This document shows, piece after piece, positions 20,089 to 63,069 of a stretch of DNA of 63,069 nt. Positions within the stretch are counted from its first letter, which is position 1. Each line of letters opens with the position of its first letter. Under the pieces are notes generated by a model. The model was not told the DNA's origin and did no database searches. It saw only the letters and a program-made list of their open reading frames with translations. Source of the stretch: Bilabrum cf. latius (Eukaryota); the NCBI GenBank assembly GCA_965178125.1, contig OZ237752.1:1054001-1117069 (forward strand), written 5' to 3'. A program made the position numbers and the translations under genes.

Positions 20089-21335
20089 ATGGCATCTAGT
20101 AGTAATCCTCCACCTGTGAGATGTCGTAAATTATCACGTAGAGGCCTAGTATTGACTCATTGCCGCTCAGCACAGGTTGCCCACACCTTTGCTCTCTTTT
20201 TTGCAGCCCGTGCAAGCGTCATCTATTCCATCCGATGGTGCTGGCGCAGAAGCACCGGACGAGTCTATGGTAAGAATTAAATGTTCCCGGTACGAGTTAG
20301 CCTGTGCATGCTCACATGAGGGCTGGGGTAATCATCCAACATTCGTTCCTGCCGCAGGAAATGAAGCTGTACGGATACGGTCGCGAGGAAAAGAAGAAAT
20401 GGGACGAGAGATCAGATATCTATGGTATTTTGATAGCGCTTGATGGCTTGGAGGAAGCTTTCATCAATGGAGCATTCGACACGGAGGACAAGAAGCGCGA
20501 ATACGCATCTGTGTGCCAGGACCTTATCAACCAGATGCAGATGAGACAAAGGAACTTGGCCGAGTATAGCAACTCATTTGATGAGTTCATGCGCGCTCAC
20601 AACCTCAAGTGTCCTCACGCACAGCACAGGCTAAGCAAAGGTATCCCAGCGACCGTGGAGATGCGCTCGCAACAGCGATCCGCAGAAAGCCAGCATGGCG
20701 CCCTTGCGTTCTAGACGGGGATCGCCATCGTGGAAGCTCTTGACCGGTTAGAGATGGAAATGATAGACAAGGAGGGGCTATTCACTCCCCTGCAGAACAT
20801 CCTCTCGCTGTTGAACCGAATGTCGAACTTGCCGGCCGACTTCGGCCCAGTGGCCACAATGCAGCAGTGGGTCACCACCGTGAACCAAATGAGCATCAGC
20901 GCGCAGCTTACGGAGGACCAGAAGCGGCAGCTCAAACTTGACCTCAGCGAAGCGCAGCGCACGCTACAGGAGTTCCTGTAGCGCAGCGACAGCAGCGGGG
21001 GAGGGGGGGGGGCTAGGAGCGGGCGCCCGATGGCACCGCCAGCTTCGGGCACTGCGGGCGGGCATCGACCGGCCCCCATATCTTCCCATGGAGGCGGCGT
21101 GCTTGCAGGGGCACTCGGTACCTCGCCTAGGCCGGCGCCATCAACCACACCATCGGCACCGTCGACTGGGGCAGGAGCAGGAGCAGGGGCAGGAGCAGGA
21201 GCAGGAGCAGGAGCAGGGGCAGGAGCAGGGGCAGGAGCAGGAGCTGCCTCCGCTGCGCCTGCGTAGACGTTTGGGGCAGGAGGGATGGGCACCAGTGGCA
21301 CCGGCCCATCGCGTCCACTGTTCCATGGGTTTTGA
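20089..21335 (+). CDS. VPS28: ESCRT-I subunit VPS28 with a Gly/Ala-rich C-terminal extension
   Basis: Motifs EMKLY...LEEAFI, CPHAQHRL..GIPATVE, ALDRLEM, RMSNLPADF, MSISAQLTEDQKRQLKLDL. Predicted introns 20116-20206 and 20270-20357 (GT..AG). In-frame TAG at 20712, 20979 and 21264; TGA at 21333. Confidence 0.88.
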
Positions 21336-33155: not shown

Positions 33156-33308
33156 TGATTCGCAACTGGCCGCCCCAGACGCACTTCTGTTGCGGGCGGA
33201 ATAGACTTACAGGGCAGTGCAGTTTCACTTTGCTGCTGATTCGGTGGGCGGCGCCCAGTGAATCCAGATGATGAGATGACATAAATACTTAGTGAATGCC
33301 TACATCAA

Positions 33309-36300: not shown

Positions 36301-39206
36301 GATAACTCAGATGCACCAGGTGGTCGCCGCATTGACGGAGCCGAGATGAAGTCGCCGTGCAGATGGGCAGAGGAGGCGCTGCTGCTGGAGATGTTCATCT
36401 CCGTCTGCTGGTCATGGGCAGATGTTGGCCTAGATCCTGGCCTGGACGGCCCTCTCGATCCTGGCCTGGATCCTGGCCTGGATGGTCCCCTAGACCCTGG
36501 CCTCGATCCTCCCCTTGAGCTGCTCCTCGACCTTCCAGCGAACGGACTGGCCATCGCTGCCCCTGGCAGAGCCTCTATACTTCCTGCAACTGGACCTCGG
36601 CTCTTTGGTCTCAATGACGTCCCCGAGATAGGATACAATCCTGCCTTAGGCGCTGGGGTTTCACTCGCCTGCAACGAAGGCTACGATGCTGCTTCCACCC
36701 GTGACCCGGCTATGAGGTGCCCGGCGGGCATTTCTCGCTTGGCGTTGTCGTGCTATGTGTCGACTGCCAGGGCATGCTCTGCACCCCTCTCGCCTATGGC
36801 TGTCTTCTCCTGGTCGCTTTTTGCCTCGGATAAACGCCGCGAGTTGAGCTAATTGATCGATGCAGACTCTGCCTGATTCGCAGATATGTCTGACTTGTCC
36901 CCAGCTTGCTCCATTGGCTTTGACCGACCCACTTCCTAGCCATCCAATCCCAGCCGATCCGCAGAGGGCATCTCGCCCGAGGCAAGAAGTGACGGCTTTA
37001 CCTCGCGTTGCTGCTCGCCCTGTGCATGAGCGGCCCTGCGTCGGCTTGTAGATTGCTTGGAGACTGCAACGGGGAGCACCTGCCGCTCAACGAATCGGCG
37101 CACGCTGGGATCATGCCTGACGGCCTCTTCTAGCTGAGGGAGAAATCCCAGCGGAGCAGGCACCGATTTAACCTGCACTTCGGGTGTCCCACCTTGCGCC
37201 TACCTATGCCCGCGAGTTGCCTTTGTCTTCGACTATGGCGTCTCTACAGATGCAGATGCCCCATTGGGAGTGTCTGTGGCAAGGACGCTACCAATTCTAG
37301 CTGCAGGCCCACGCGGGCCCAAGACGGCATTTGCTCCACCGCGACCGCGCGTACCCATAGACACAGCCCGCAGGGGTCGCTGCGTGCCAGGCGCAGAGGC
37401 TGCACGAGCTGGTGCGCGGATCTCGATCGGTTCGATGCGGGCGTCGAGGCCCTTGCGCAGGGCGGGTGGTGTCGCTCCAGCAGGCTCGTGCTGAGCAGGT
37501 GGCGCTCTTTCCGGCGACCTCAAGCGCGCGGGGTTAGCTCCCCCAGGTGTCCCGCCGGCTCTGCCTGCCCTCGACTTAGGCTTACTCCCCTTGCGCCGCC
37601 GAGAGCCAGACCGCACCTTCTGCGCCCATGGCCTGTCCCGCCGCTTGCCCACCCCGCCCTAGGCCGCCGTCCGCGCTCGAACCCGCACTGGGCTCCGCAG
37701 CACAGATCGACCTCTGCGGGTGCCTAGCCTTGCTCCGTCTTTCAGCGGAGAGGATGCGATAGACTCTGCCAGTCCGCCGCGATGCCTGCCCAGCGCTGAC
37801 ATGCTCTGTTGGTTGCGGTCCAGTGCCGGCTTCTCGCGCGTGCTTGACCTGGACCGACTCGGGCCGCGAGCTCGCCCGCCTCCTCGCACGCGCTGGCCGT
37901 GGATGCTGCTAAGCCTGCCTCTTTCCGTGGGCCCCAGCGACAATCCGCCGTCCGACTCCCGCAGCGGAGACGCCGCGCCCCACGATACCGCCAGTGCTTT
38001 GATGCTGTCCTGCTGCATGGCGGCCCTGGCGTCACCTTCCGCACCTGCCACGTCACCGACGGGACTGTATGCGCGCCGCTAAGCGTGTTTCGAGCAATCG
38101 GACGCATCTGTCACAACGCCCTGTGGGCTACCTACGCCGCTAGCGAGAGCGCGGTGCCGCCGCGCTGCTGCTGCTGCAGGCTGGTGAGCGGTGGCGGCGC
38201 GGCGGTGCTCCGAGCTGTCTCTGCGCCTGACTCTAGCCCTGCCGATTGTGGATTCCGCGCGCCGCCCTCTGCTCCGCCCCCGCTGCTTGGCATGGCCGCG
38301 CCTAGGCTGCCTTCGCATTGGCGACATTGCCTGCCTCCTGCTAGCCGGCTCTGATATCGGCGGCAGCCGCGCGACTGGCGCCGGAGACCCCCTCCGATTG
38401 GTCCTTCTAGTGGATGCTCCGTGTCCCCTCCCCTTAGTGCCGCCCATCTCACGGTTCTTCCTGCCCTCTGTAGCAACAGAAGCAAGCTGCCCCTGCCCCT
38501 GCCCACCCGCTCCAGGTAAACCCCTGCGAGCCATCGTTCTGCCGCGAGATGCATGCCCAGCCCCTGGCTGCGCGGCCCCCCTGCTATTCCCGCCCTCCAT
38601 GATACGTCGCACGAGGGCAGGGTCGTCAGGCAACTTGCCCAGCGCATCCAACCGGGCCAGCTCCTGCTGCTGCTGCTCGCGGTGCCGACGCACCTTCTTC
38701 TGCCGCTGCAGCCCACGAAGCATGCGTCGCACTGCTGCTTTTTCAGCTGCCTGTTCCCTTCTTCTCTCTGCGTCGAGTTTCTTCCGCAGCCTGCGCGCTT
38801 GCTGCTTGCGCTCCCGCATCATCGCAAGGGCTGCCTGCTCCTGCTGGTCCGCTCGTTGCTGGGCTTGCTCGGCCTATCGCTTTCGGCGTGCCTCTTTTGC
38901 CGCAAGCCAGGCGGAAAAGTCATCGCCAGAGCTATTAGCATGCGTGTTCGACTGACTTTCCCCGCTTGTACCGGTTGCGCTGTCCAATTTCTCATTTGGA
39001 GTGTGGTAGTCGCGTTCCGCTGCTGCTAGCTGCCTGTCTGAAGATCGGCCCGACTCTGGCGATTTTGTCTCTGCATGGGGTCCATCCTTCTGGAAATTAT
39101 CCAATGCTTTGGTGCGGTCGGGTGATGAAGACTAGAACGCAGCTTCTTTCTCCCCGTGAGGACTCTTCTGCTCGCCGGCTTCCAGCGAAGCTCCCTCTCG
39201 TGACAT
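33309..39206 (-). CDS. Large (~1,965 aa) low-complexity/coiled-coil protein of unknown function with C-terminal hydrophobic anchor
   Basis: Nine ORF-track pieces (33309, 33627, 34524, 36069, 36936, 37233, 37659, 38079, 38874) share one frame, joined only by TAG. ATG at 39206, TAA stop at 33309. No family recognised. Confidence 0.75.
34577..34880 (-). repeat. Coding tandem repeat, 51-bp unit, ~6 copies (AQTGASGLEADGSDGSP)
   Basis: Near-identical repeats directly visible in the DNA and in the 34524-36062 translation. Confidence 0.95.
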
Positions 39207-39651
39207 CGTTCTGCCAACTTCAAAACTGCCCAGGCCAAACGATCTAGTATATTAGCACCTTACTGTGTGCATCTTCAAGCCCAACCACCGAAAATCTCTT
39301 TCGAGAGAGCGAAGAAATCGATGAGGCTCGGTGTTCAACGGCACTTCCACGGGAAATCCTTTGCAATCAAACAACTGCTTGCTTAACGGTAAATTTTACT
39401 CGCTTACGATATCTGATTGCTCAAATTGTCGGTATTTTGAAAGACGATAGCGTAGTTGGCGCCCGTATGAGCACCCGTGCCGCCGTCGCGGTGGGAATTC
39501 GGAACAAAATTCACAGTGCCGTTTGCTTGGCCTTCCGGTGCACCATTCAAAGGGTATCTTGGTGTATCAGCCTCTGAGTTACACAGTTGCAATAATAAGC
39601 CTCTGTAGTTTGGGATTTTGCCCTCGGCAGCGAAAAGAGGGCTTGCCAGCT

Positions 39652-47220: not shown

Positions 47221-48727
47221 TCGAGCTAGATTGGCTTCGGTGCAGATGTCGACAGCGACATCTGAGGCCAAGAACCAGGCACTAGCTAAAGTGATCGATG
47301 CTCTTGGAAAGCAGAAAGACGCGATTCTGAAGGGAAATGATGAGGATTGTACGAAAGCGAAAGAAGCTGACTTGCCTTTCGCCTTGCAGAAGCGTTTGTC
47401 GCTCCGCGGCGGCAAATTCGAGGGCGTTTTGGAAGGACTAGGCGATCTGCAGAAGCTGGAAGACCCCGCTGGTAAGGTGACTCTCGCGCGGCGACTTGCT
47501 GCCGATGGTCCAGTCTTACTGCGAGTGACTGCGCCAATCGGGGTGATCTTGGTCGTGTTTGAGTCTCGCCCGGACGCCGCCGTGCAGATCGCGAGCCTGT
47601 GCATCAAGTCGGGAAACGCCGTCATCCTCAAAGGGGGCAAGGAGGCAACCAAGTCAAATGCGGCTCTCGTGAAGGCCATCCGGTCTGGCCTGGAGGAGGC
47701 CGGGCTGCCAGCTGATGCGGTTCAGTTCGTGGACTCTCGGGAGGCCGTGAGCGCGCTGCTGTAGCTAGACGAGCACATCGACCTCGTCATCCCCCGGGGG
47801 TCCAACGCGCTGGTCAAAGCCGTGCAGTCCCAGACCAGAATTCCCGTCCTAGGGCACGCGGACGGCATCTGCAGCATGTATCTGCACGAGGATGCGGTCC
47901 CGGACAAGGCCGCCAGGCTGGTGGTGGACAGCAAGACTCAGTACGTCGCGGCCTGCAACGCGTGCGAGACGCTGCTGGTGAACAGGAAGGTCGCGGGGAC
48001 GTTGCTTCTGACGGTCGGCGAGGCGCTGCTTAAGGCTGGGGTGCGGTTGCACGCGTGTCCGGAGAGCTTGGGGCCGCTGAGGGCGGCGCGAGAGAAGGTG
48101 GTGTCGGAGGCAGGGGGCGAGGGGGAGGGCAAGGGCAAGGGCGAAGGAGAAGGCGGCAGCGGGGAGGTGCCCTCAGTGGAGCCCGCCGGTGAGTCTGATT
48201 TCGACACTGAGTGGCTGTCCATGTGCCTGTCCGTCAAGGTGGTGGAGGGCACGGACGAGGCAGTGGCGCACATCAACGAGCACGGGAGCGGGCACACGGA
48301 CTGCATCGTGTGCGAGGACAAGGCCACGGCCAGCTACTTCCTCGCGCGGGTGCTCAGTGCTGCCTGCTTCCACAACGCGAGCACCAGATTCTGCGACGGG
48401 TTCCGGTTTGGGTTCGGCGCGGAGAGCGGCATCTCCACGAGTAAGGTGCATGCCCGCGGTCCCGTGGGGCTCGAGGGGCTCTGTCTGTACAAGTACAAGC
48501 TCCTGGGAGACGGGATGGACCCGGGGTCCGTCACAGGGGCTGTCGCCAAAGAGGTGGCAGCAGCAGGCTCCGGCAAGGCGGGAGCCTCGGGGGCGGGCGG
48601 CAGCACCGGCGGGGTGCACGCGGTGGCGGACTTTGGCACCACGCGTGAGTTCAACCACAAAGATCTAGACGGAGTGGCACACGGCGCATCTGAGGCAGAC
48701 GTGCTGCATCGCCTGGGGTATTGCTGA
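47221..48727 (+). CDS. proA: Gamma-glutamyl phosphate reductase (ProA/Pro2); a short upstream exon is likely
   Basis: Motifs APIGVILVVFESRPDA, KSGNAVILKGGKEA, LLXLDEHIDLVIPRGS (TAG at 47762), PVLGHADGIC, AACNACETLLV, HINEHGSGHTD, NASTRFCDG.RFGFGAE.GIST.KVHARGPVGLEGL. TGA stop. Confidence 0.95.
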
Positions 48728-48894: not shown

Positions 48895-51040
48895 TCATTC
48901 GCGGGACCCGTGCCCACTGCTCCACTTGTTGCCGGTCCTGGCCATGGACAGCTGGCTCTCCCGGGCCATCATGGTTGGAGTCGCCCCATCGTCCTCGGCG
49001 AGAGAGGCGGTGGTGTCTCTCACCACAAATCGAGTGGTGGCTCTCCTGAGCTCGTCATCCTCCTGCCGAGTCATGGCGAAGGGCCCGGGGGCAGGGACGG
49101 GGCCCGCGTGCCTCCCTCCAAACATCTCGTCCAGCTCGTGCCCAGAGGCCGTGTTCCACCCCGCGCCCGCGTCCTACCCGGAGGCCCCCCACGCAGACCG
49201 ACTGCCGCTGCGGCTGGCCTCTGTCCCGAAAGTCCCCCGACTTGGAAGTCTCGTTAATGCCTATTTCCTCTCCACCCCTCGTCCGAGCGCGTGCGTGCTG
49301 CGGGTAGAGTCCCCCGCGTGCCCTTCCTCCATGGCCGTGCCGGGGTGCACCTTAACCTTGATCCGGTGGGACCGAGCCCGCCGGTGCGCCCTGCTGGGCG
49401 CCGGGGTCTTCTTGGCTGGCCTAGCCTCCTGCTTCTTGTCATCCCCGTCATCAAGGACGGGCTTCCCCTCGATCTCGATGTCGTCGTCGTGCTTCTTGAC
49501 AGGGTGCGGCTACCATCGCCTCAGGTAGTCGCTGATGGCCCACATGAGTTCCCAGGTGGCCCTTGTCGTGGCGGGAGGGGGCAGCGCGAAGCCAAACCCT
49601 TCCTACTCGTCGACAACCCGCCCCAGATGGGTCCTGGTCCGGTGCATGTCGTCATCGGTGTCGTCCGTGTGGCCCTTGACCTGCTCCCCACAGATCCACT
49701 ACTGCACCCACCAGACCATGCGCACCACCAAGGCGAGCCCAAGCAGCGCCAGAGAGCACAGCATCACCACGAGCAGCTGCCCGTTGGCATTCCTGGACAC
49801 CTGCGGCGCCAGGTTCCCCCCGAACCACTGTTCCTCCATCCGCCTGTACTCTTCTGTCTTCCACGTCTTCAGGATAGCCCGGTTGATGACCTCCTTAAGC
49901 CACGAGGGGGCAGTCGGTCCCACCGCGATGCCGTACTTCTGCTCGTCGAAGACAGGTCCGACCACGCCGTAGGCCCCCCCGCCCCCGCTGGTCTGCGTCA
50001 CGAAGTACTGGAGGACGGGGAAGTCGTATACAACCGCGTCTCCGGCCCCGCCCGCAAACGCATCCAGAGCATCGGGGACAGTGTCGTATCCCTCGATGTC
50101 CAGGCCCTGGCCGTACCTGCGCACGTACGCCTCTGCGGTGGACCCCACGGGCACGTTGACCGTTTTCCCGTCCAGGTCGCCAAATCCCTCGATCCTAGAC
50201 ACAGGCGCCTCCTGCAGCATGTAGACCGTGACTAGAGCCGTTACCACGATGGTCAGCAGGGGACCGAGGATCTTGAATATCAGGATGGCTGGCTTGACCA
50301 GCATTCCCTGGGGTTCGACGGCCTGCTGGCCGAAAAGAGCCCAGAGCGCGATATACATTGCAGTCTCGAACTTTACCCATGTGCTGCCATGCTCGGGCCA
50401 GGCCTTCACTGGTCCCGGGAACATCTCCTCCAGGGGGACAAGGATCAGACCTCCAGCAATCGCACAAACTACAATAACACCTACAAACAGTCCAACAGCT
50501 TGCCCTAGCGTGCTGAACAGCGCGATTGATACCGAAAGTAGGTCAGTCTGTTCTCGAGCTAGCACGCGGTAGCCGCTTAGGAACCACGAGTGGCTGAAGT
50601 CCAGGTTGAACGTGCTCTCGCGAGAAGTCGTCATTGTAATGGCTGTGTGGCTGATGTCAACTTCTCCTAGGCCAGCACCTCTTAGCATTTCCACGGTGGT
50701 AGGATATTCGGTGATATTTAGGCAGTCTTAGCATTTCCACGGTGGTAGGATATTCGGTGATATTTAGGCAGCTGAAGTTGATCGGGTCCTCCAAAGGTAT
50801 AGCAATCTCGTCGTCGTCTCTTGCCTCAACGATGGAAGCGACCTCTTGTATTGCAGCTGGTACTATCATTTCGGCCCAGTACTGCATAGCAAACCCGGTG
50901 TACGGCGCGGTGAGCTCAATCGAAAGCGCAGCTTCAGCATCCGGCGTACCGCTCATGGTGAATGGAGGTGTTTGTTTTACTCCCATTCGGATGCAGGATG
51001 CATGCGCTAAACAAACAGGCGCGTAGCAGAGCATGGCCAT
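48895..51040 (-). CDS. Ionotropic glutamate receptor-like channel (S1-M1-P-M3-S2-M4), frameshifted near the 5' end by a 46-bp duplication; possibly a pseudogene or an assembly error
   Basis: Motifs GVKQTPPF, GEVDI...ITMT..RE...DFSHSW, DLDGKTV....GSTAE, DAVVYDFPVLQY, YGIAV, and a terminal TM helix. Continues through TAGs (49699 and others) to TGA 48895. 5' exon structure is uncertain. Confidence 0.75.
50680..50771. repeat. Perfect 46-bp tandem duplication inside the glutamate-receptor-like CDS
   Basis: TCTTAGCATTTCCACGGTGGTAGGATATTCGGTGATATTTAGGCAG occurs at 50680-50725 and 50726-50771. Confidence 0.95.
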
Positions 51041-51461
51041 TTCCAATACATGACACCTGGACGCCGTTCTGTGACAGAGGGAGGAAGAAAGTACAGTTGC
51101 GAACGCACATCATGATCTACCTAATTCTGAGATAGTCCAATTCGGTACCTGTCTAACTTGTGATTTGTTGTCGTCATTTTGTCGTCAGGTTCAGGCAATC
51201 GCCAACAAATTCGCCTCGAATCGCTGTGATATCGCTGTGATCCTGCCTCGACAGTTCATCGCAGGCGTTGTCCAGCGCGATGTGCAGTTGGTCGCAATCG
51301 AGGTACATTACGTCCTTTTGATCGTAAACGTCACGGCAATGGTTGCAGAGATGTATTTTGCTAGTTCATTCGATAGTTTCGATGAAATTTGGCTGATTGA
51401 TGCCATCACGACCCCATCCAGGCAGCACAACAGGCAGTTGCCCATCGCACGGAGCAACACA

Positions 51462-52653
51462 CGATCATGAGACGTGCTGCCATCCGGGGCTCACCCGGCC
51501 TCACCACCGATCATGAGACGTGCTGCCATCCGGGGCTCACCCGGCCTCACCACCGATCATGAGACCTGCTGCCATCCGGGGCTCACCCGGCCTCACCACC
51601 GATCATGAGACCTGCTGCCATCCGGGGCTCACCCGGCCTCACCACCGATCATGAGACCTGCTGCCATCCGGGGCTCACCCGGCCTCACCACCGATCATGA
51701 GACCTGCTGCCATCCGGGGCTCACCCGGCCTCACCACCGATCATGAGACCTGCTGCCATCCGGGGCTCACCCGGCCTCACCACCGATCATGAGACCTGCT
51801 GCCATCCGGGGCTCACGCGGCCTCACCACCGATCATGAGACCTGCTGCCATCCGGGGCTCACCCGGCCTCACCACCGATCATGAGACCTGCTGCCATCCG
51901 GGGCTCACCCGGCCTCACCACCGATCATGAGACCTGCTGCCATCCGGGGCTCACCCGGCCTCACCACCGATCATGAGACCTGCTGCCATCCGGGGCTCAC
52001 CCGGCCTCACCACCGATCATGAGACCTGCTGCCATCCGGGGCTCACCCGGCCTCACCACCGATCATGAGACCTGCTGCCATCCGGGGCTCACCCGGCCTC
52101 ACCACCGATCATGAGACCTGCTGCCATCCGGGGCTCACCCGGCCTCACCACCGATCATGAGACCTGCTGCCATCCGGGGCTCACCCGGCCTCACCACCGA
52201 TCATGAGACCTGCTGCCATCCGGGGCTCACGCGGCCTCACCACCGATCATGAGACCTGCTGCCATCCGGGGCTCACGCGGCCTCACCACCGATCATGAGA
52301 CCTGCTGCCATCCGGGGCTCACCCGGCCTCACCACCGATCATGAGACCTGCTGCCATCCGGGGCTCACCCGGCCTCACCACCGATCATGAGACCTGCTGC
52401 CATCTGGGGCTCACCCGGCCTCACCACCGATCATGAGACCTGCTGCCATCCGGGGCTCACCCGGCCTCACCACCGATCATGAGACCTGCTGCCATCCGGG
52501 GCTCACCCGGCCTCACCACCGATCATGAGACCTGCTGCCATCCGGGGCTCACGCGGCCTCACCACCGATCATGAGACCTGCTGCCATCCGGGGCTCACCC
52601 GGCCTCACCACCGATCATGAGACCTGCTGCCATCCGGGGCTCACCCGGCCTCA
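51462..52653. repeat. Subtelomeric minisatellite, 46-bp unit, ~26 copies
   Basis: Unit CGATCATGAGACCTGCTGCCATCCGGGGCTCACCCGGCCTCACCAC with rare single-base variants. Confidence 0.97.
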
Positions 52654-52707
52654 GTAGTATATAAAGTGAATGGTGTACCTCAATCAAAGATTGGGTTTAA
52701 GGGGGGG

Positions 52708-53163
52708 TTAGGGTTAGGGTTAGGGTTAGGGTTAGGGTTAGGGTTAGGGTTAGGGTTAGGGTTAGGGTTAGGGTTAGGGTTAGGGTTAGGGTTAGGGTTA
52801 GGGTTAGGGTTAGGGTTAGGGTTAGGGTTAGGGTTAGGGTTAGGGTTAGGGTTAGGGTTAGGGTTAGGGTTAGGGTTAGGGTTAGGGTTAGGGTTAGGGT
52901 TAGGGTTAGGGTTAGGGTTAGGGTTAGGGTTAGGGTTAGGGTTAGGGTTAGGGTTAGGGTTAGGGTTAGGGTTAGGGTTAGGGTTAGGGTTAGGGTTAGG
53001 GTTAGGGTTAGGGTTAGGGTTAGGGTTAGGGTTAGGGTTAGGGTTAGGGTTAGGGTTAGGGTTAGGGTTAGGGTTAGGGTTAGGGTTAGGGTTAGGGTTA
53101 GGGTTAGGGTTAGGGTTAGGGTTAGGGTTAGGGTTAGGGTTAGGGTTAGGGTTAGGGTTAGGG
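52708..53163 (+). repeat. Telomeric repeat tract 1, (TTAGGG)x76, internal
   Basis: Perfect TTAGGG run preceded by a G7 run. Confidence 0.98.
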
Positions 53164-53891
53164 TATCTAATATAAAGTCAGGGACAGGGTCGGGGAAAAA
53201 ATATTTTCATCTTCAATATTTGTCGAAAAACGACGTGCTACGATCTCGGCAACTACAGGTGATATGAAGACCGTTCAAACTGCATCGGGACGGCCTGGGG
53301 GCACAACATGGGCCAAATGTTCCCCAGGTTCCGTTCTGGCCGCGCGGCGCCGATATGGGTGTATGAAGAATTTCACACCGAAAAACGACGTGCTACGATC
53401 TCGGCAACTACAGGTGATATGAAGACCGTTCAAACTGCATCGGGACGGCCTGGGGGCACAACATGGGCCAAATGTTCCCCAGGTTCCGTTCTGGCCGCGC
53501 GGCGCCGATATGGGTGTATGAAGAATTTCACACCGAAAAACGACGTGCTACGATCTCGGCAACTACAGGTGATATGAAGACCGTTCAAACTGCATCGGGA
53601 CGGCCTGGGGGCACAACATGGGCCAAATGTTCCCCAGGTTCCGTTCTGGCCGCGCGGCGCCGATATGGGTGTATGAAGAATTTCACACCGAAAAACGACG
53701 TGCTACGATCTCGGCAACTACAGGTGATATGAAGACCGTTCAAACTGCATCGGGACGGCCTGGGGGCACAACATGGGCCAAATGTTCCCCAGGTTCCGTT
53801 CTGACCGCGCGGCGCCGATATGGGTGTATGAAGAATTTCACACCGAAAAACGACGTGCTACGATCTCGGCAACTACAGGTGATATGAAGAC
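53164..53891. repeat. Conserved junction (~60 bp) plus 155-bp satellite type A, ~4.3 copies (block 1)
   Basis: TATCTAATATAAAGTCAGGGACAGGGTCGGGGAAAAAATATTTTCATCTTC followed by 155-bp periodicity (53308/53463/53618). Confidence 0.95.
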
Positions 53892-54275
53892 TTAGGGTTA
53901 GGGTTAGGGTTAGGGTTAGGGTTAGGGTTAGGGTTAGGGTTAGGGTTAGGGTTAGGGTTAGGGTTAGGGTTAGGGTTAGGGTTAGGGTTAGGGTTAGGGT
54001 TAGGGTTAGGGTTAGGGTTAGGGTTAGGGTTAGGGTTAGGGTTAGGGTTAGGGTTAGGGTTAGGGTTAGGGTTAGGGTTAGGGTTAGGGTTAGGGTTAGG
54101 GTTAGGGTTAGGGTTAGGGTTAGGGTTAGGGTTAGGGTTAGGGTTAGGGTTAGGGTTAGGGTTAGGGTTAGGGTTAGGGTTAGGGTTAGGGTTAGGGTTA
54201 GGGTTAGGGTTAGGGTTAGGGTTAGGGTTAGGGTTAGGGTTAGGGTTAAGGTTAGGGTTAGGGTTAGGGTTAGGG
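53892..54275 (+). repeat. Telomeric repeat tract 2, 64 units with one TTAAGG variant at 54246
   Basis: Read directly from the sequence. Confidence 0.98.
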
Positions 54276-55003
54276 TATCTAATATAAAGTCAGGGACAGG
54301 GTCGGGGAAAAAATATTTTCATCTTCAATATTTGTCGAAAAACGACGTGCTACGATCTCGGCAACTACAGGTGATATGAAGACCGTTCAAACTGCATCGG
54401 GACGGCCTGGGGGCACAACATGGGCCAAATGTTCCCCAGGTTCCGTTCTGGCCGCGCGGCGCCGATATGGGTGTATGAAGAATTTCACACCGAAAAACGA
54501 CGTGCTACGATCTCGGCAACTACAGGTGATATGAAGACCGTTCAAACTGCATCGGGACGGCCTGGGGGCACAACATGGGCCAAATGTTCCCCAGGTTCCG
54601 TTCTGGCCGCGCGGCGCCGATATGGGTGTATGAAGAATTTCACACCGAAAAACGACGTGCTACGATCTCGGCAACTACAGGTGATATGAAGACCGTTCAA
54701 ACTGCATCGGGACGGCCTGGGGGCACAACATGGGCCAAATGTTCCCCAGGTTCCGTTCTGGCCGCGCGGCGCCGATATGGGTGTATGAAGAATTTCACAC
54801 CGAAAAACGACGTGCTACGATCTCGGCAACTACAGGTGATATGAAGACCGTTCAAACTGCATCGGGACGGCCTGGGGGCACAACATGGGCCAAATGTTCC
54901 CCAGGTTCCGTTCTGACCGCGCGGCGCCGATATGGGTGTATGAAGAATTTCACACCGAAAAACGACGTGCTACGATCTCGGCAACTACAGGTGATATGAA
55001 GAC
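54276..55003. repeat. Junction plus 155-bp satellite type A (block 2, copy of block 1)
   Basis: Offset 1,112 bp from block 1, including the CTGACC variant in the fourth monomer. Confidence 0.95.
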
Positions 55004-55387
55004 TTAGGGTTAGGGTTAGGGTTAGGGTTAGGGTTAGGGTTAGGGTTAGGGTTAGGGTTAGGGTTAGGGTTAGGGTTAGGGTTAGGGTTAGGGTTAGGGT
55101 TAGGGTTAGGGTTAGGGTTAGGGTTAGGGTTAGGGTTAGGGTTAGGGTTAGGGTTAGGGTTAGGGTTAGGGTTAGGGTTAGGGTTAGGGTTAGGGTTAGG
55201 GTTAGGGTTAGGGTTAGGGTTAGGGTTAGGGTTAGGGTTAGGGTTAGGGTTAGGGTTAGGGTTAGGGTTAGGGTTAGGGTTAGGGTTAGGGTTAGGGTTA
55301 GGGTTAGGGTTAGGGTTAGGGTTAGGGTTAGGGTTAGGGTTAGGGTTAGGGTTAGGGTTAAGGTTAGGGTTAGGGTTAGGGTTAGGG
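55004..55387 (+). repeat. Telomeric repeat tract 3, 64 units with one TTAAGG variant at 55358
   Basis: Same length and variant position as tract 2. Confidence 0.98.
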
Positions 55388-55845
55388 TATCTAATATAAA
55401 GTCAGGGACAGGGTCGGGGAAAAAATATTTTCATCTTCAATATTTGTCGAAAAACGACGTGCTACGATCTCGGCAACTACAGGTGATATGAAGACCGTTC
55501 AAACTGCATCGGGACGGCCTGGGGGCACAACATGGGCCAAATGTTCCCCAGGTTCCGTTCTGGCCGCGCGGCGCCGATATGGGTGTATGAAGAATTTCAC
55601 ACCGAAAAACGACGTGCTACGATCTCGGCAACTACAGGTGATATGAAGACCGTTCAAACTGCATCGGGACGGCCTGGGGGCACAACATGGGCCAAATGTT
55701 CCCCAGGTTCCGTTCTGGCCGCGCGGCGCCGATATGGGTGTATGAAGAATTTCACACCGAAAAACGACGTGCTACGATCTCGGCAACTACAGGTGATATG
55801 AAGACCGTTCAAACTGCATCGGGACGGCCTGGGGGCACAACATGG
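55388..55845. repeat. Junction plus 155-bp satellite type A, ~2.5 copies (block 3, truncated at a different point)
   Basis: Ends at CACAACATGG, followed by TTTA, a G run and telomeric repeats. Confidence 0.95.
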
Positions 55846-55859
55846 TTTAGGGGGGGGGG

Positions 55860-56531
55860 TTAGGGTTAGGGTTAGGGTTAGGGTTAGGGTTAGGGTTAGG
55901 GTTAGGGTTAGGGTTAGGGTTAGGGTTAGGGTTAGGGTTAGGGTTAGGGTTAGGGTTAGGGTTAGGGTTAGGGTTAGGGTTAGGGTTAGGGTTAGGGTTA
56001 GGGTTAGGGTTAGGGTTAGGGTTAGGGTTAGGGTTAGGGTTAGGGTTAGGGTTAGGGTTAGGGTTAGGGTTAGGGTTAGGGTTAGGGTTAGGGTTAGGGT
56101 TAGGGTTAGGGTTAGGGTTAGGGTTAGGGTTAGGGTTAGGGTTAGGGTTAGGGTTAGGGTTAGGGTTAGGGTTAGGGTTAGGGTTAGGGTTAGGGTTAGG
56201 GTTAGGGTTAGGGTTAGGGTTAGGGTTAGGGTTAGGGTTAGGGTTAGGGTTAGGGTTAGGGTTAGGGTTAGGGTTAGGGTTAGGGTTAGGGTTAGGGTTA
56301 GGGTTAGGGTTAGGGTTAGGGTTAGGGTTAGGGTTAGGGTTAGGGTTAGGGTTAGGGTTAGGGTTAGGGTTAGGGTTAGGGTTAGGGTTAGGGTTAGGGT
56401 TAGGGTTAGGGTTAGGGTTAGGGTTAGGGTTAGGGTTAGGGTTAGGGTTAGGGTTAGGGTTAGGGTTAGGGTTAGGGTTAGGGTTAGGGTTAGGGTTAGG
56501 GTTAGGGTTAGGGTTAGGGTTAGGGTTAGGG
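55860..56531 (+). repeat. Telomeric repeat tract 4, (TTAGGG)x112
   Basis: Perfect run preceded by a G10 run. Confidence 0.98.
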
Positions 56532-58244
56532 TATCTATTATAAAGTCAGGGACAGGGTCGGGGAAAAATATTTTCATCTTCACTTTTTGACAAAATCCTG
56601 CGGGATACGATCTCGGCAACCACAGGAGATATGAAGACCGTTCAAATTGCGTTGGGACGGCCTAGGGCCACATCATTGGCCAAATGTTCCTCAGGTTCCG
56701 CTTTTGACGCGCGGCGCCAATATTGGGCCTTGAAGATTTTCATGCTGAAATCCTGCGGGATACGATCTCGGCAACCACAGGAGATATGAAGACCGTTCAA
56801 ATTGCGTTGGGACGGCCTAGGGCCACAACATTGGCCAAATGTTCCTCAGGTTCCGCTTTTGACGCGCGGCGCCAATATTGGGCCTTGAAGATTTTCATGC
56901 TGAAATCCTGCGGGATACGATCTCGGCAACCACAGGAGATATGAAGACCGTTCAAATTGCGTTGGGACGGCCTAGGGCCACAACATTGGCCAAATGTTCC
57001 TCAGGTTCCGCTTTTGACGCGCGGCGCCAATATTGGGCCTTGAAGATTTTCATGCTGAAATCCTGCGGGATACGATCTCGGCAACCACAGGAGATATGAA
57101 GACCGTTAAAATTGCATTGGGACGGCCTAGAGCCACATCATTGGCCAAATGTTCCTCAGGTTCCGCTTTTGACGCGCGGCGCCAATATTGGGCCTTGAAG
57201 ATTTTCATGCTGAAATCCTGCGGGATACGATCTCGGCAACCACAGGAGATATGAAGACCGTTCAAATTGCGTTGGGACGGCCTAGGGCCACATCATTGGC
57301 CAAATGTTCCTCAGGTTCCGCTTTTGACGCGCGGCGCCAATATTGGGCCTTGAAGATTTTCATGCTGAAATCCTGCGGGATACGATCTCGGCAACCACAG
57401 GAGATATGAAGACCGTTCAAATTGCGTTGGGACGGCCTAGAGCCACATCATTGGCCAAATGTTCCTCAGGTTCCGCTTTTGACGCGCGGCGCCAATATTG
57501 GGCCTTGAAGATTTTCATGCTGAAATCCTGCGGGATACGATCTCGGCAACCACAGGAGATATGAAGACCGTTCAAATTGCGTTGGGACGGCCTAGGGCCA
57601 CATCATTGGCCAAATGTTCCTCAGGTTCCGCTTTTGACGCGCGGCGCCAATATTGGGCCTTGAAGATTTTCATGCTGAAATCCTGCGGGATACGATCTCG
57701 GCAACCACAGGAGATATGAAGACCGTTCAAATTGCGTTGGGACGGCCTAGAGCCACATCATTGGCCAAATGTTCCTCAGGTTCCGCTTTTGACGCGCGGC
57801 GCCAATATTGGGCCTTGAAGATTTTCATGCTGAAATCCTGCGGGATACGATCTCGGCAACCACAGGAGATATGAAGACCGTTCAAATTGCGTTGGGACGG
57901 CCTAGGGCCACAACATTGGCCAAATGTTCCTCAGGTTCCGCTTTTGACGCGCAGCGCCAATATTGGGCCTTGAAGATTTTCATGCTGAAATCCTGCGGGA
58001 TACGATCTCGGCAACCACAGGAGATATGAAGACCGTTCAAATTGCGTTGGGACGGCCTAGGGCCACATCATTGGCCAAATGTTCCTCAGGTTCCGCTTTT
58101 GACGCGCGGCGCCAATATTGGGCCTTGAAGATTTTCATGCTGAAATCCTGCGGGATACGATCTCGGCAACCACAGGAGATATGAAGACCGTTCAAATTGC
58201 GTTGGGACGGCCTAGGGCCACAACATTGGCCAAATGTTCCTCAG
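56532..58244. repeat. Variant junction plus 155-bp satellite type B, ~10.6 copies
   Basis: TATCTATTATAAAGTCAGGGACAGGGTCGGGGAAAAATATTTTCATCTTC followed by 155-bp periodicity (56723/56878/...). The monomer is clearly homologous to type A. Confidence 0.95.
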
Positions 58245-58298
58245 ATTCATTGTACTTCATTCAGTGCAAGTATGGCGTATTGAAACCTACTCGGGGGA

Positions 58299-59814
58299 GG
58301 TTTCAAAACCTACCCAGGGCGGTTTCAAAACCTACCCAGGGCGGTTTCAAAACCTACCCAGGGCGGTTTCAAAACCTACCCAGGGCGGTTTCAAAACCTA
58401 CCCAGGGCGGTTTCAAAACCTACCCAGGGCGGTTTCAAAACCTACCCAGGGCGGTTTCAAAACCTACCCAGGGCGGTTTCAAAACCTACCCAGGGCGGTT
58501 TCAAAACCTACCCAGGGCGGTTTCAAAACCTACCCAGGGCGGTTTCAAAACCTACCCAGGGCGGTTTCAAAACCTACCCAGGGCGGTTTCAAAACCTACC
58601 CAGGGCGGTTTCAAAACCTACCCAGGGCGGTTTCAAAACCTACCCAGGGCGGTTTCAAAACCTACCCAGGGCGGTTTCAAAACCTACCCAGGGCGGTTTC
58701 AAAACCTACCCAGGGCGGTTTCAAAACCTACCCAGGGCGGTTTCAAAACCTACCCAGGGCGGTTTCAAAACCTACCCAGGGCGGTTTCAAAACCTACCCA
58801 GGGCGGTTTCAAAACCTACCCAGGGCGGTTTCAAAACCTACCCAGGGCGGTTTCAAAACCTACCCAGGGCGGTTTCAAAACCTACCCAGGGCGGTTTCAA
58901 AACCTACCCAGGGCGGTTTCAAAACCTACCCAGGGCGGTTTCAAAACCTACCCAGGGCGGTTTCAAAACCTACCCAGGGCGGTTTCAAAACCTACCCAGG
59001 GCGGTTTCAAAACCTACCCAGGGCGGTTTCAAAACCTACCCAGGGCGGTTTCGAAACCTACCCAGGGCGGTTTCAAAACCTACCCAGGGCGGTTTCAAAA
59101 CCTACCCAGGGCGGTTTCAAAACCTACCCAGGGCGGTTTCAAAACCTACCCAGGGCGGTTTCAAAACCTACCCAGGGCGGTTTCAAAACCTACCCAGGGC
59201 GGTTTCAAAACCTACCCAGGGCGGTTTCAAAACCTACCCAGGGCGGTTTCAAAACCTACCCAGGGCGGTTTCAAAACCTACCCAGGGCGGTTTCAAAACC
59301 TACCCAGGGCGGTTTCAAAACCTACCCAGGGCGGTTTCAAAACCTACCCAGGGCGGTTTCAAAACCTACCCAGGGCGGTTTCAAAACCTACCCAGGGCGG
59401 TTTCAAAACCTACCCAGGGCGGTTTCAAAACCTACCCAGGGCGGTTTCAAAACCTACCCAGGGCGGTTTCAAAACCTACCCAGGGCGGTTTCAAAACCTA
59501 CCCAGGGCGGTTTCAAAACCTACCCAGGGCGGTTTCAAAACCTACCCAGGGCGGTTTCAAAACCTACCCAGGGCGGTTTCAAAACCTACCCAGGGCGGTT
59601 TCAAAACCTACCCAGGGAGGTTTCAAAACCTACCCAGGGCGGTTTCAAAACCTACCCAGGGAGGTTTCAAAACCTACCCAGGGAGGTTTCAAAACCTACC
59701 CAGGGAGGTTTCAAAACCTACCCAGGGAGGTTTCAAAACCTACCCAGGGAGGTTTCAAAACCTACCCAGGGAGGTTTCAAAACCTACCCAGGGAGGTTTG
59801 AAACCTACCCTAGG
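58299..59814. repeat. 22-bp minisatellite GGTTTCAAAACCTACCCAGGGC, ~69 copies
   Basis: Read directly. Degenerate edge copies; the GGGA variant is concentrated at the distal end. Confidence 0.97.
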
Positions 59815-60076
59815 TGTGGGTTTGGGAATCCAGTGGTTATTGACCGATATTCAATGTTGTGGCTCGTTCTACGTAGCCATATGTATGCGTTAACCTCCTT
59901 GGTCGATACATCGCTTTGACATCAGGTATTCGTTGGCTTATAGTCAAGACTAAATAGATTGCGTCCTGGCTCCTACTATCCCGTCCTAACGGGTCACTGG
60001 CTGGCACTCTGGCAAGCTCCTCTCACAAGCTGGCCCAGCTGCCACTGACCTCAATTGGTATCCGCCTGGCTGCTTT

Positions 60077-61612
60077 TCACTCGTTATCGGAGGAGGGTTC
60101 CGCATCGACAGCTGCCAGGAGCGCCTCAACAGCGTCCACGTCTGCTGCATTGAGATCTCCTTCCGCCGTCTTCTCGAGGGCCGTCATCAGGCCTACGAGC
60201 GTGCCCAACCCGTCGTCCCTCTCTTGAATTGTTTCCTGCACGTCCTCGAGCATGTCGTCGAGAGTTCGGCTGACGCCCAGCGCTATGTCATCGCAGGCAG
60301 CGAGGATGCGGTCCACCAGGTGCCGCTGCTAGTCGGTGAAGCCGTTGTCATCCACTCCACCGTCGTTCTCAGAGTCGTCTTGCTGGTTCTGGGCCTCGTT
60401 CTCTTCTTCCTCATCCAGCTCGTCCTGATCCTCCTCGTCCTGCTGCACGAGTTCTATCGGAGCCTCATCCTCGTCCTCTTCATCGGCTGCGTCTGCGTGG
60501 TATCGATCACCGATCTCCTCTTCATCCTCCTCAGAGTCCTGTCGAGGCAGTGATGCTGCTGCTCCACTCCTTGCGCCTCTTGCTCCCCTCTTGTCCTGGC
60601 CAACGGCGTGGCGAGCTCCTCCGCCATAGCCCGGTTGGAGAATGGGCGATCGCTTGTGCTGTATCTTAGCCCGAGGTGCCGCTTCAGTCGCCTTCCTGCG
60701 CTCCGGTTCTGCCGGTTGCGCACCTTCATCCCTCGGCTTTCCCTTTGACTTTCCCTTTGACTTGCCCGCGGCCTTGGTCCTGGCCTTCAATTTGGCCTTT
60801 GCCTTTTCCCTGGCCTTGGCCTCCGCTCTCCGCTTGGGGCCGAGTAGGTCGTTGTTCAGTCGCTCGGTCTATGAGTCGCTGGACTCTGAGCCGTCTGAAT
60901 CTTGCTCGCCTCGTTTCCTCTGGGCCTTGTAGGCACTGTGGTCCGCGACACCGTCGTCGGGGTCGTCCTCGTCGTCGTCGACCATGGCACTCCGTTTGTC
61001 CTTGCCAGCACGGGGTGCTCCACTCGGCGAAGCAGCAGCGGCTCCCGCAGAAGCATCTTGGTCCCCTGCGGCTGCCGCGGCAGAGTCCTTGACTGCCATG
61101 TCAAACACGTCTTGGAACACAGCCTGCATGCCTCCACGCGCACGCACAGAGGCTTTCCCAGCTCCGTAGTCGCAGACGAACTTGATCGCGGTCTTGTAGT
61201 TCCTCCGCAAGCCATCCATGCCTGCCTTGAACCAAGGATTGTGGCTGGTAGAGTAGCCGCTGTCGCGCAGGCCCATGAGCATCTAATTCATCTTGCGGTA
61301 GCCTGGCGAGCTGGTGCCGCTAGTTGATGCAGCCGGATATAGGCGGTGACTCAGCACCTTCAGCATGTCAGGCGGCAGATCGGACTCATTCAGGTCCAGC
61401 ATGGCATCCACGCAGGCTTTGATGCCCTCTTTCTTGGTCCCCTAGTAGTGCTCGGTAGACCCGCAGAGTAACCCGCAATCTTGGTGGAGGCCCACGAGGG
61501 AGATCAGCAGGACTTGCTTGGCAGCAGACGTGCTGACGCCTGAAGCCAGGGCAGCCACGACGGGGCGGGAGGCCTTGGTGTGCTTGACGCTGTAGCTCTT
61601 TGCGGCGGCCAT
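60077..61612 (-). CDS. Hypothetical protein, 511 aa, with basic and acidic low-complexity tracts
   Basis: Pieces 61442, 60869, 60329 and 60077 share one frame, joined by TAGs at 61442, 61283, 60869 and 60329. ATG 61612 (MAAAKSYSVKH...), TGA at 60077. Confidence 0.75.
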
Positions 61613-61838
61613 AGTACTCTGCGGTGCTGGGGGAACACGGGTAAGGCCACGAACAGGCGCTTGGATGCGGCAGCGAACACGGACATGAGACCCAGGGAGT
61701 CTCCAGGGCAAGCTCGAGGGCAAAGAAAAAGAAGGCCACGACCCCGCGCACTCGGTCTCAGACCCGGGACCCATGATGTTAGGTCGATCCCCCAGTCGTG
61801 GGGGGGCGGACCCCAGCCCAGAAAAAAATTAAAAAAGA

Positions 61839-61919
61839 TCGCCCCAACGGGAATCGAACCTCGGGGGTAGGCCTGGGTGCGATTACCAACCGTACGCAAT
61901 ACCACTACACCACCACAGC
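61839..61919 (-). ncRNA. Degenerate tRNA-like / Pol III type-2 promoter element (tRNA pseudogene or SINE-like head)
   Basis: Minus strand reads GCTGTGG-TGGTGTAGTGG (A box)...TTGGTAA loop...GGTTCGATTCC (B box), followed by T6 and T7 runs. Acceptor and T stems pair poorly. Confidence 0.5.
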
Positions 61920-62493
61920 AACCCACGCGAAACCGAAAAAAAAATACAGATTCGCATCAAAAGTGCACGCAACTTGCACTTGTCACGCCGAAACCTACCC
62001 GTTCACCCAACGAGCAGCGCGAAATCAGAAACACTCATATTGCGCTCCTTGTATTCAATTGCAGAGGCGCATACTTGGCATATAGCTACTATAGCATATT
62101 GTGCATACAACCCTAAAGCAAACGTGAGTCAAATCGATGGGGTATGCGTGGGGATTGCCTTGCGCAATGCGCTTGCTGCAACGTGGTTCAGACGTTTGGC
62201 TCAATTGCGCGACGGCAAGCACTCGTTGGAACTAATCTCGCGCATATTATCAAATAATATAACATACTGCAAACAATTGCGCGGCGATATATAGGCTGCG
62301 CGCCCAATGCTCACTTTGCTTGCGGCAGGTGTGCTGCGACAACATTTGTGGTGGCCCGGATCAGGTTGCGGAACCTGATGCGCGGCACCGCCGTGACGAG
62401 TGCGCCACCAGGGAACAACGCATCGTACCATCATACTAATCACATCCCAAGTATATTATATATCCTTGTGGCATCTCTGTCCGCAGTCTGGTC

Positions 62494-63069
62494 ATGGCGC
62501 AGTCCACGTACGACGCCACCAAGCATGTGAAGGCTCTCGACTACCTTCGGGCCTTCCTGGACCGCCGCGCGAAGGGCTACGCTCAGAACCCGCATCGCGT
62601 GCGCATCGGAGTCCCAGGGCCACTTCAACCAGGAGGTGCCGCCCTGCCTGGCCCGCCGGCCGGCGAGGCGCAGGCCCAGATCCCGGCCCAGGTGGGGCCA
62701 GCGCCAGGCGGCCATGCCGCCGGGGGGGGCGATGCGGCAGGCCTGCCGGCCCCCGCCCCAGCCATCGGCGAGCATGCTCCGGAGCCCCAGCACCAGCAGC
62801 AAGAGGGCGCCCACCAACCACCACCTGGTGCAGCTCTTGCTGCTGGCCAGCAGGCGATGGCCGCCGCCCCGCCCCAGCACCCCGCTGGTCCGGGTGCCAA
62901 CCTGCCGGTCCCAGGAGGCTTGCAGCCCGAGCCGCCAGCTGGCGATGCCGACGCCTTCCTCCCGATCCCGGAGCCCCAGCAGGAGCCTGCAGGTGGGCCA
63001 GCCGGCGTCGGTCCGGCCCCTCCAGCAGCCGAGCAGCAGCCAGCTGCCCAGGCTGCCCAGCACCAACTC
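62494..63069 (+). CDS. Hypothetical Pro/Ala/Gly/Gln-rich protein, open to the window end
   Basis: ATG 62494 (MAQSTYDATKHVKALDYLRAFLDRR...), with no stop in 192 codons. Missing from the ORF track because it has no stop inside the window. Confidence 0.6.
   Translation, partial: MAQSTYDATKHVKALDYLRAFLDRRAKGYAQNPHRVRIGVPGPLQPGGAALPGPPAGEAQAQIPAQVGPAPGGHAAGGGDAAGLPAPAPAIGEHAPEPQHQQQEGAHQPPPGAALAAGQQAMAAAPPQHPAGPGANLPVPGGLQPEPPAGDADAFLPIPEPQQEPAGGPAGVGPAPPAAEQQPAAQAAQHQL

What the first reader, a model, noticed from the sequence alone, without database searches (positions are those of the whole stretch)
52654..59900. Repeated element attached to telomeric tracts, with a fixed proximal end and variable distal truncation (candidate telomere-specific mobile element)
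Seen: four internal TTAGGG tracts in chromosome-end orientation. Each is followed at the same repeat phase (..TTAGGG|TATCTA) by a conserved ~60-bp junction and a 155-bp satellite. Three copies stop within the satellite (at GAAGAC| twice, at ACATGG| once) and are capped directly by new TTAGGG. The fourth, diverged copy continues into a 22-bp array and genes. Established: endonuclease-deficient Penelope-like retroelements (Athena/Coprina, terminons) and yeast Y' elements form telomeric chains separated by telomere repeats; in the former the RNA 3' end is proximal and 5'-truncated copies are telomerase-capped. Inference: cycles of element addition to the chromosome end, truncation and telomere healing. 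No reverse transcriptase, helicase or capsid gene is visible in the window, so the mechanism is open; a telomere-integrating virus is an alternative.
Basis: partly seen in the sequence, partly recalled or inferred. Interest (0 to 1): 0.75.

Follow-up and report, generated by a model that had tools for sequence, protein, structure and literature searches.

The report
Telomere-joined element amplified by end recombination
At what looks like a chromosome end of a single-celled eukaryote, a gene-carrying, satellite-rich DNA element sits beyond full-length telomere repeats; three of its four copies are one broken copy duplicated by recombination, and the enzyme that first attached it is not visible, a rolling-circle transposon being the best guess.

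Summary
The structure is real in the window: four TTAGGG tracts (76, 64, 64, 112 units), each followed by the same 60-bp end and a 155-bp satellite. Units 1 and 2 are identical over 1,112 bp, including tract length, a variant repeat and a satellite SNP, and unit 3 is the first 458 bp of the same unit. This is one truncation plus D-loop/rolling-circle copying, as described for Magnaporthe MoTeR arrays, then a second break, healing, and addition of a diverged (81%) copy. That copy carries a palindromic 22-bp array, an orphan gene with diverged copies, a tRNA-like unit and a spliced orphan gene, in the host's code (TAG is sense). No RT, Rep, helicase or capsid was found. No hammerhead or poly(A) lies at the junction, and RNA-like contigs stop 3.5 kb short of it, which weakens the Penelope reading. 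The end reads A|TC plus a TATA-rich motif, like a Helitron left end: my best guess (0.33), with polarity opposite to Paramecium's telomeric Helitrons. No genome or spanning reads were available, so a misjoin is not excluded. New variant of a known kind; interest moderate.

The parts
48895..50688 (-). last recognisable host gene before the end (solute-binding domain, channel/receptor-like); context
   Evidence: PF00497 E 2e-5, just under the curated cut-off
51462..52653 (.). 46-bp satellite, 25.9 copies, presumed native subtelomere; unrelated to the 155-bp unit
   Evidence: shuffle test p 0.54 and 0.11
52654..52707 (+). 54-bp spacer ending in TTTAA plus 7 G (irregular start of tract 1)
52708..53163 (+). 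telomere tract 1, 76 perfect units
53164..53891 (+). copy A1: 60-bp end plus 4.3 units of 155-bp satellite A, cut after GAAGAC
53892..54275 (+). tract 2: 59 units, one TTAAGG, 4 units
54276..55387 (+). copy A2 plus tract 3: exact 1,112-bp duplicate of 53164-54275
   Evidence: 0 differences; same SNP
55388..55845 (+). copy A3: first 458 bp of the same unit, cut after ACATGG
55846..56531 (+). TTTA plus 10 G, then tract 4, 112 perfect units
56532..56591 (+). end of copy B: A|TC plus TATA-rich motif, then three degenerate telomere hexamers; 55 of 60 columns identical to A
56592..58248 (+). 155-bp satellite B, 10.7 units, 125 of 155 positions identical to satellite A
58283..59810 (.). 22-bp quasi-palindromic array, 69.5 copies
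60077..61612 (-). orphan gene P0001, 511 aa with 4 in-frame TAG; helical N-terminus, basic middle, acidic stretch; multicopy with diverged copies
   Evidence: no family (14, 59, 60, 83)
61837..61921 (-). tRNA-like RNA polymerase III unit (A-box-like, B-box, T run); not a called tRNA
   Evidence: ARAGORN only at relaxed threshold, only B-box match in the window; none at default or in Rfam
62124..62486 (+). 363-nt GT..AG intron upstream of P0002
   Evidence: joint in one contig of run X6, depth 4.9; splice-site sequence
62494..63069 (+). orphan gene P0002, Pro/Ala/Gln/Gly-rich, runs off the window; near-identical 413-aa P0004 in the protein collection

Best explanation
A multicopy DNA element, most likely a rolling-circle (Helitron-like) transposon or a non-autonomous derivative, is joined by its left end to the G-strand of a native-length telomere, so that it points outwards. 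History at this end: (1) a copy of lineage A was added beyond tract 1 [attachment shown, mechanism inferred]; (2) it broke in the satellite and got a new tract [shown]; (3) the end copied itself by D-loop or circle replication, 2.4 turns of one 1,112-bp unit [identity shown, pathway inferred, about 0.8 on its own]; (4) it broke again and was healed with an irregular G-rich start [shown; telomerase inferred]; (5) a lineage-B copy carrying satellites, orphan genes and a tRNA-like unit was added, by transposase joining or by telomere-primed copying from another end [inferred]. The transposase, if present, lies beyond 63069 or elsewhere.
For: Exact 1,112-bp repeat with same tract length, variant unit and SNP is the signature that Rahnama et al. 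assign to D-loop or rolling-circle amplification rather than sequential transposition (PMC7367193, passages; also PMC8381367). Both ends read A|TC followed by a TATA-rich motif; canonical Helitron left ends start with TC after A (PMC13085455 sect. 18; PMC11417382) and one family has a TA-rich TATATAAA stretch (PMC12001565); a pattern of this form occurs once in 102,800 strand positions of the host part (pattern chosen after seeing the sequence). Kilobases of stacked satellites between end and ORFs, ORF-less truncated arrays and telomere repeats on both sides are traits of Paramecium telomeric Helitrons. The end is better conserved than the satellite (50 of 52 columns, p 0.007, end point chosen by eye; 55 of 60, p 0.06). 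The cargo gene is multicopy: exact and diverged contigs in 4 of 4 runs, 17 of the 39 listed coding differences synonymous against 24% expected (p 0.005; 39 best-supported of 447 rows).
Against: No Rep or helicase: none in Pfam/PHROG scans of the distal proteins, no motif in any TAG-read-through frame of 100 aa or more in 50689-63069 apart from one GIY inside a telomere frame. No right end (hairpin plus CTRR) passed my scan of 59791-63069 and no inverted match of 9 nt or more to the end. Polarity is opposite to Paramecium, where the left end is distal and insertion is in the C-strand. TTAGGG has no AT step and the junction GGGTA|TC is one T short of the telomere phase. The motif could equally be a TATA box. 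Only two independent ends were seen.
Confidence: 0.33

Rival explanations
1. Passive Y'-like block: an old telomere-to-segment fusion created the junction once; the block (satellites plus an orphan gene family) has since moved between ends only by telomere-primed break-induced replication, with no enzyme of its own.
For: All tracts are long (64-112 units), ample for homologous invasion; the fixed phase is then shared by descent; genes use host code and host-like GC (61% and 74% against 62%); internalised telomeres followed by duplicated segments arise in Pyricularia and Chlamydomonas (PMC8381367; PMC10620057; passages); no mobility gene seen.
Against: The end stays more conserved than the satellite across lineages about 19% apart; other copies of the gene have different downstream flanks (loose ends at 59967 and 59994), more like a family of elements.
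Confidence: 0.22
2. Telomeric retroelement with its RNA 3' end at the junction (minus strand): endonuclease-deficient Penelope/terminon type, or MoTeR-like non-LTR type, primed on the telomere, 5'-truncated and capped.
For: Geometry matches MoTeR/FoTeR exactly: telomere at the 3' end, variable 5' truncation, tandem repeats inside, identical duplicated units (PMC7367193, PMC12857005; passages). One truncation ends in C, as 5 of 6 unseeded MoTeR truncations do. P0001 is on the minus strand. Long tracts fit priming at the tip.
Against: No hammerhead by Rfam or pattern search, though Athena/Coprina are described with one beside the repeats (PMC8557442); no poly(A); first ORF is 3.5 kb from the junction and is not an RT, whereas FoTeR 3' UTRs are 336-409 bp; RNA-like runs X6 and X8 have no cover left of 60018 (weak, their RNA status is a guess); an opposite-strand spliced gene lies inside.
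Confidence: 0.2
3. Telomere-integrating DNA virus or episome (herpes-like mirusvirus or similar) that carries its own telomere tract at a terminal repeat and recombines into the chromosome end; the A copies are eroded termini.
For: Palindromic iterated array like an origin or tethering site, tRNA-like Pol III unit (88), divergent orphan genes; the DNA runs on at least 3,673 bp in run X1; P0003 and P0004 each come from a 12,766-bp contig (35, 53). A mirusvirus-like element sits at a chromosome end in Aurantiochytrium (bioRxiv 2023.06.15.545109, passages). HHV-6/Marek's telomeric integration is recalled, not read.
Against: 0 loci in 5 scans of IMG/VR; no PHROG or Pfam hit; no GC shift from the host; several diverged gene copies within single runs.
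Confidence: 0.13
4. Assembly artefact: true chromosome ends and loci with internal tracts were chained through the TTAGGG overlap, or the 1,112-bp unit was written twice.
For: Perfect duplicate; long pure tracts are classic misjoin points; nothing here spans a tract (one search covered only 59800-63069; best holders may be the source data).
Against: No N, clean repeats, tracts of 384-672 bp in a 7.3-kb block that long reads span easily (inference); tract 1 lacks the variant of tracts 2-3 and unit 3 ends at its own site; the tract-to-end junction occurs in two diverged forms and so must exist in the DNA.
Confidence: 0.12

Closest known systems
MoTeR arrays and telomere-bounded tandem repeats of Magnaporthe/Pyricularia oryzae (PMC7367193, PMC8381367; passages read)
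   Same: Elements between TTAGGG tracts with a fixed proximal end, distal truncation with telomere capping, and arrays with identical truncation points and tract composition made by D-loop or rolling-circle copying.
   Different: MoTeR1 is a 5'-distal non-LTR retroelement with an RT; inter-element tracts are half a unit to about 20 units, here 64-112; no RT is seen here and the cargo is orphan genes on both strands.
Telomere-capping Helitrons of Paramecium aurelia (PMC13085455; abstract and sections 13, 14, 15, 18 read; no LTS/RTS text found in the 7 supplements searched)
   Same: Telomere repeats of one polarity around the element, ordered satellite stacks between end and ORF, many ORF-less or truncated copies.
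   Different: There the left end is distal and a stem-loop/CCAA right end is proximal on the C-strand; here the proximal end has no such stem-loop and looks like a left end on the G-strand; no transposase shown.
Athena/Coprina endonuclease-deficient Penelope-like elements and terminons (PMC8557442 passages; terminon details recalled, paper not held)
   Same: Attachment to the G-rich end, fixed proximal end, capped distal truncations.
   Different: No hammerhead beside the repeats, no RT seen, RNA-like cover stops well short of the junction.
Saccharomyces Y' elements (recalled)
   Same: Gene-carrying subtelomeric unit between telomere tracts, amplified in tandem by recombination.
   Different: Y' encodes a helicase; none seen here; satellites and orphan genes instead.
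Mirusvirus-like LE-Chr15 of Aurantiochytrium limacinum (bioRxiv 2023.06.15.545109, passages); HHV-6 telomeric integration (recalled)
   Same: Foreign-looking, orphan-rich DNA at a protist chromosome end.
   Different: LE-Chr15 lies between rDNA/LORE-TEAR blocks and has virion genes; none are visible here.

Membership tests
Helitron (HLE1) | Left end starts with TC after a host A, TA-rich | tested here: inconclusive
   A|TC plus TATA-rich motif in both lineages, but the preceding TA is not telomere phase and the pattern was chosen after the fact
Helitron (HLE1) | Right end: hairpin then CTRR before T | tested here: inconclusive
   None passed the scan of 59791-63069 or 58151-58330; a CTAG directly after the last 22-bp palindrome has no spacer and no following T; the element runs off the window
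Helitron (HLE1/HLE2/Paramecium clade) | RepHel transposase (HUH Rep plus Pif1 helicase), own or in trans | not testable with these tools
   Not in the window's distal part; no genome; letters beyond 63069 not shown
Helitron2/Helentron (HLE2) | Short terminal inverted repeats, T|T insertion | tested here: inconclusive
   GGGT|ATC fits the only TT step of the repeat; no inverted match of 9 nt or more within 58241-63069; right end may lie outside
Paramecium-type telomeric Helitron | Stem-loop plus CCAA/CTRR right end proximal on the C-strand | tested here: not met
   Minus-strand end folds at about -2 kcal/mol as DNA and ends AGATA
EN-deficient Penelope-like (Athena/Coprina/terminon) | Hammerhead ribozyme beside the telomeric repeats | tested here: not met
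   No Rfam hammerhead at E up to 5 in 50000-63069; no core with stem II on either strand of 52651-60100
EN-deficient Penelope-like (Athena/Coprina/terminon) | PLE reverse transcriptase | not testable with these tools
   Absent from the window's distal part; continuation unseen
MoTeR-like telomeric non-LTR element | 3' end at telomere, 5'-truncated capped copies | tested here: met
   Geometry fits if the minus strand is sense
MoTeR-like telomeric non-LTR element | RT plus endonuclease ORF within a few hundred bases of the 3' end | tested here: not met
   First ORF is 3.5 kb away and has no RT match
D-loop/rolling-circle telomeric amplification | Identical truncation point, tract length and variant repeats in successive units | tested here: met
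   0 differences in 1,112 bp; 458-bp partial third unit
Telomere-integrating virus | Virion or replication genes; extrachromosomal form | not testable with these tools
   No hit for the two visible genes; continuation unseen
Y'-like element | Same end after telomere tracts at several chromosome ends; helicase | not testable with these tools
   No genome; 5 of 5 metagenome pattern hits were chance matches without telomere repeats

The most novel reading that the evidence does not exclude
The element is a DNA replicon that attaches itself to the tip of the telomere G-strand: either a rolling-circle transposase that joins its left end to the telomere 3' end (opposite polarity to the Paramecium system), or a herpes-like protist virus/episome with its own telomere tract, palindromic origin array and tRNA-like RNA. 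Either would be a DNA-based way of extending chromosome ends outwards, which I did not find in the papers read (searches).
Probability: 0.18. Interest if true: 0.8.

Novelty: new variant of a known kind. Interest (0 to 1): 0.48.

Why it matters
The amplification pattern is known from fungi, so that part is a clean new example in a distant protist. The element has no relative outside this lineage in the collections searched, and its class is unsettled. If it is an outward-pointing Helitron or a telomere-integrating protist virus, it would add a DNA-based route of telomere colonisation and give a testable substrate (HUH joining to a telomere 3' end). If it is a passive block, it is ordinary subtelomere turnover.

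Tried and rejected
No genome held. P0001: 0 Pfam/PHROG families at normal thresholds, 0 hits among 8,000 candidates of similar length, 1 hit among 1.84 billion representatives (P0003, 87 aa, 89% over 76 aa), nothing useful in PDB, 0 loci in viral and metagenome contigs; single-sequence fold of residues 1-180 had pLDDT 40 and no match at E up to 0.001, so it says nothing. P0002/P0004: Atlas scores 0.80 or less or no hit, 1 hit of 73 candidates, 0 of 566 for the C-terminal part, 0 viral loci. DNA patterns of the end, the 155-bp and the 22-bp repeat: 0 in viral contigs; 5 of 5 metagenome hits were chance. No RNA holder is listed on record; X6 and X8 are guessed RNA, X6 shows one spliced joint; uncovered parts are not evidence of silence. 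Contig depths were not used as copy number. Rfam miRNA hits on the 22-bp array are far below gathering scores. The 46-bp satellite and the 54-bp spacer are not related to the element (shuffle p 0.11-0.61). Halocafeteria seosinensis is not the host type (telomere TAACCCT, GC 47%). A Ngaro reading was dropped: no split direct repeats or RT/YR seen. An AACCCTAAA 9-mer near 62108 was judged chance (my estimate). No paper on a UAG reassignment in bicosoecids came up; a Cafeteria-like host is my impression from protein style, untested. bioRxiv supplements were closed, and Paramecium terminal sequences (figure files) were not seen; they could bear on the polarity comparison.
Full report
Host. The window is GC-rich (62% over 1-50,700), gene-dense eukaryotic DNA with RACK1-like WD40, ProA, VPS28, SET and cofilin genes. 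TAG is a sense codon: the 4,194-codon frame at 7371-19955 has 39 TAG and no TAA, and TAG lies inside the conserved ProA domain and between the VPS28 domains. Gln is the assumed residue; it aligned to D and K in ProA, so it is not proven. No genome is held. The lineage was not determined.

Observation. Left to right: last host gene to 50688; 46-bp satellite 51462-52653; 54-bp spacer; tract 1 (76 units); end plus satellite A; tract 2 (64); the same; tract 3 (64); the same, shorter; tract 4 (112); end plus satellite B (10.7 units); 22-bp array (69.5); genes. All tracts have chromosome-end polarity, so this is not an end-to-end fusion.

First, the three A copies are one event. 53164-54275 and 54276-55387 are identical over 1,112 bp, with the same single TTAAGG unit five from the end of the tract and the same SNP in the fourth satellite unit; the third copy is the first 458 bp of the unit. 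Tract 1 lacks the variant. Rahnama et al. take identical tract lengths and variant repeats as the mark of D-loop or rolling-circle copying rather than sequential transposition (PMC7367193, passages; PMC8381367, passages). I give this step about 0.8; the alternative is a duplicated assembly unit. Second, tracts 1 and 4 begin with TTTA(A) and a run of 7 or 10 G after GG, whereas tracts 2-3 begin cleanly after a C: two healing-like starts with a shared irregularity, unexplained.

The end. A and B agree in 55 of 60 columns (50 of the first 52) against 125 of 155 for the satellite (p 0.06, or 0.007 with the end point chosen by eye). It reads A|TC, a TATA-rich stretch, then three degenerate telomere hexamers. 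On the minus strand there is no poly(A), no stem-loop with CTRR/CCAA, no hammerhead, and folding is unremarkable (z -1.26). On the plus strand it resembles a canonical Helitron left end (PMC13085455 section 18; PMC11417382; PMC12001565), but the resemblance is short, noticed after the fact, and off telomere phase by one T. Read as GGGT|ATC it fits the T|T rule of HLE2, but no inverted repeat partner lies in the window.

The cargo. With TAG read through, P0001 (60077-61612, minus, 511 aa) is one ORF; P0002 starts at 62494 on plus. Neither has a family, fold or viral match. The only relatives, P0003 and P0004, each come from a single contig of 12,766 bp, probably the same one (inferred from the equal length). 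59830-63069 is held wholly or partly by 11 of 12 listed runs from 6 studies, 5 with half the words or more; the best may be the source data. Laying 4 of them (contigs only) showed exact and diverged contigs over P0001 in all 4; a contig in X2 that bridges the end of the 22-bp array and the gene's 3' flank; other flanks branching at 59967 and 59994; a contig in X1 continuing 3,673 bp past the window (letters not shown); and in X6 a GT..AG joint 62123 to 62487 with good splice sites. X6 and X8 (RNA by guess) cover P0001 and nothing left of 60018, a weak hint that this RNA ends there. Of the 39 listed coding differences (best-supported of 447 rows) 17 are synonymous against 24% expected, 6 of 7 in the N-terminal part: a real gene family. 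A tRNA-like Pol III unit lies at 61837-61921 (not called at default settings).

Mechanism. Shown: fixed end, two truncations, one exact amplification, two lineages, a multicopy cargo gene. Inferred: D-loop or circle copying, telomerase healing, and how the element is attached. I rank a Helitron-like element with its left end on the G-strand 0.33, a passive Y'-like block 0.22, a retroelement 0.20, a virus or episome 0.13, a misjoin 0.12. Against my own first choice: no RepHel, no right end, polarity opposite to the published telomeric Helitrons, and only two independent ends.

Comparison. It works like MoTeR arrays in amplification and capping, and like Paramecium telomeric Helitrons in its satellite stacks. 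It fails the tested features of Athena/Coprina (hammerhead), of MoTeR (RT near the end) and of Paramecium Helitrons (proximal right end), and membership of canonical Helitrons cannot be tested without the transposase. Earlier AI notes on telomere-seeking Helitrons in a dinoflagellate prompted the Helitron test; they are leads only. Papers seen: PMC13085455 (abstract, sections 13, 14, 15, 18; 7 supplements searched, no hit); passages of PMC7367193, PMC8381367, PMC12857005, PMC8557442, PMC11417382, PMC12001565, PMC8547959, PMC10620057, bioRxiv 2023.06.15.545109 and 2026.07.28.741278; part 1 of 3 of bioRxiv 2026.06.25.734631. Y', HHV-6 and terminon details are recalled.

Verdict. Real in the assembly, unconfirmed by spanning reads; fewer events than claimed; element family apparently undescribed and unclassified. 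New variant of a known kind, interest 0.48.

Noticed in passing
window 7371-19955, 47246-48727, 20361-20990: TAG is a sense codon while TAA stays a stop in this GC-rich protist (39 TAG, 0 TAA in one 4,194-codon frame; TAG inside conserved ProA). Residue presumably Gln; lineage not determined; two paper searches found no report for bicosoecids.
   Followed up: partly
window 52696-52707 and 55846-55859: Two independent tracts start with TTTA(A) plus 7 or 10 G after GG; may be a habit of de novo telomere addition in this organism, or a sequencing effect.
   Followed up: no
window 61837-61921 (-): tRNA-like unit with the only B-box match in the window and a T-run terminator, 225 bp upstream of P0001 and in the same direction.
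   Followed up: partly
window 58277-59810: The 22-bp unit is quasi-palindromic; 7 units carry a variant that lengthens the stem, clustered at the distal end; the first unit is a perfect 8-bp inverted repeat. Possible protein-binding or origin array.
   Followed up: partly
window 56546-56563 and the three A copies: Three degenerate telomere hexamers 14 bases inside the element end, conserved in both lineages.
   Followed up: partly
window 62124-62486 (+): 363-nt intron in the 5' untranslated part of P0002, seen spliced in one contig of run X6.
   Followed up: yes
window 50680-50771: Exact 46-bp tandem duplication near the start of the last host ORF, unrelated in sequence to the 46-bp satellite; may disturb the gene's 5' part.
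   Followed up: no
window 34577-34879: 51-bp coding repeat, 5.9 copies, inside the 2,015-aa ORF at 33225-39272.
   Followed up: no
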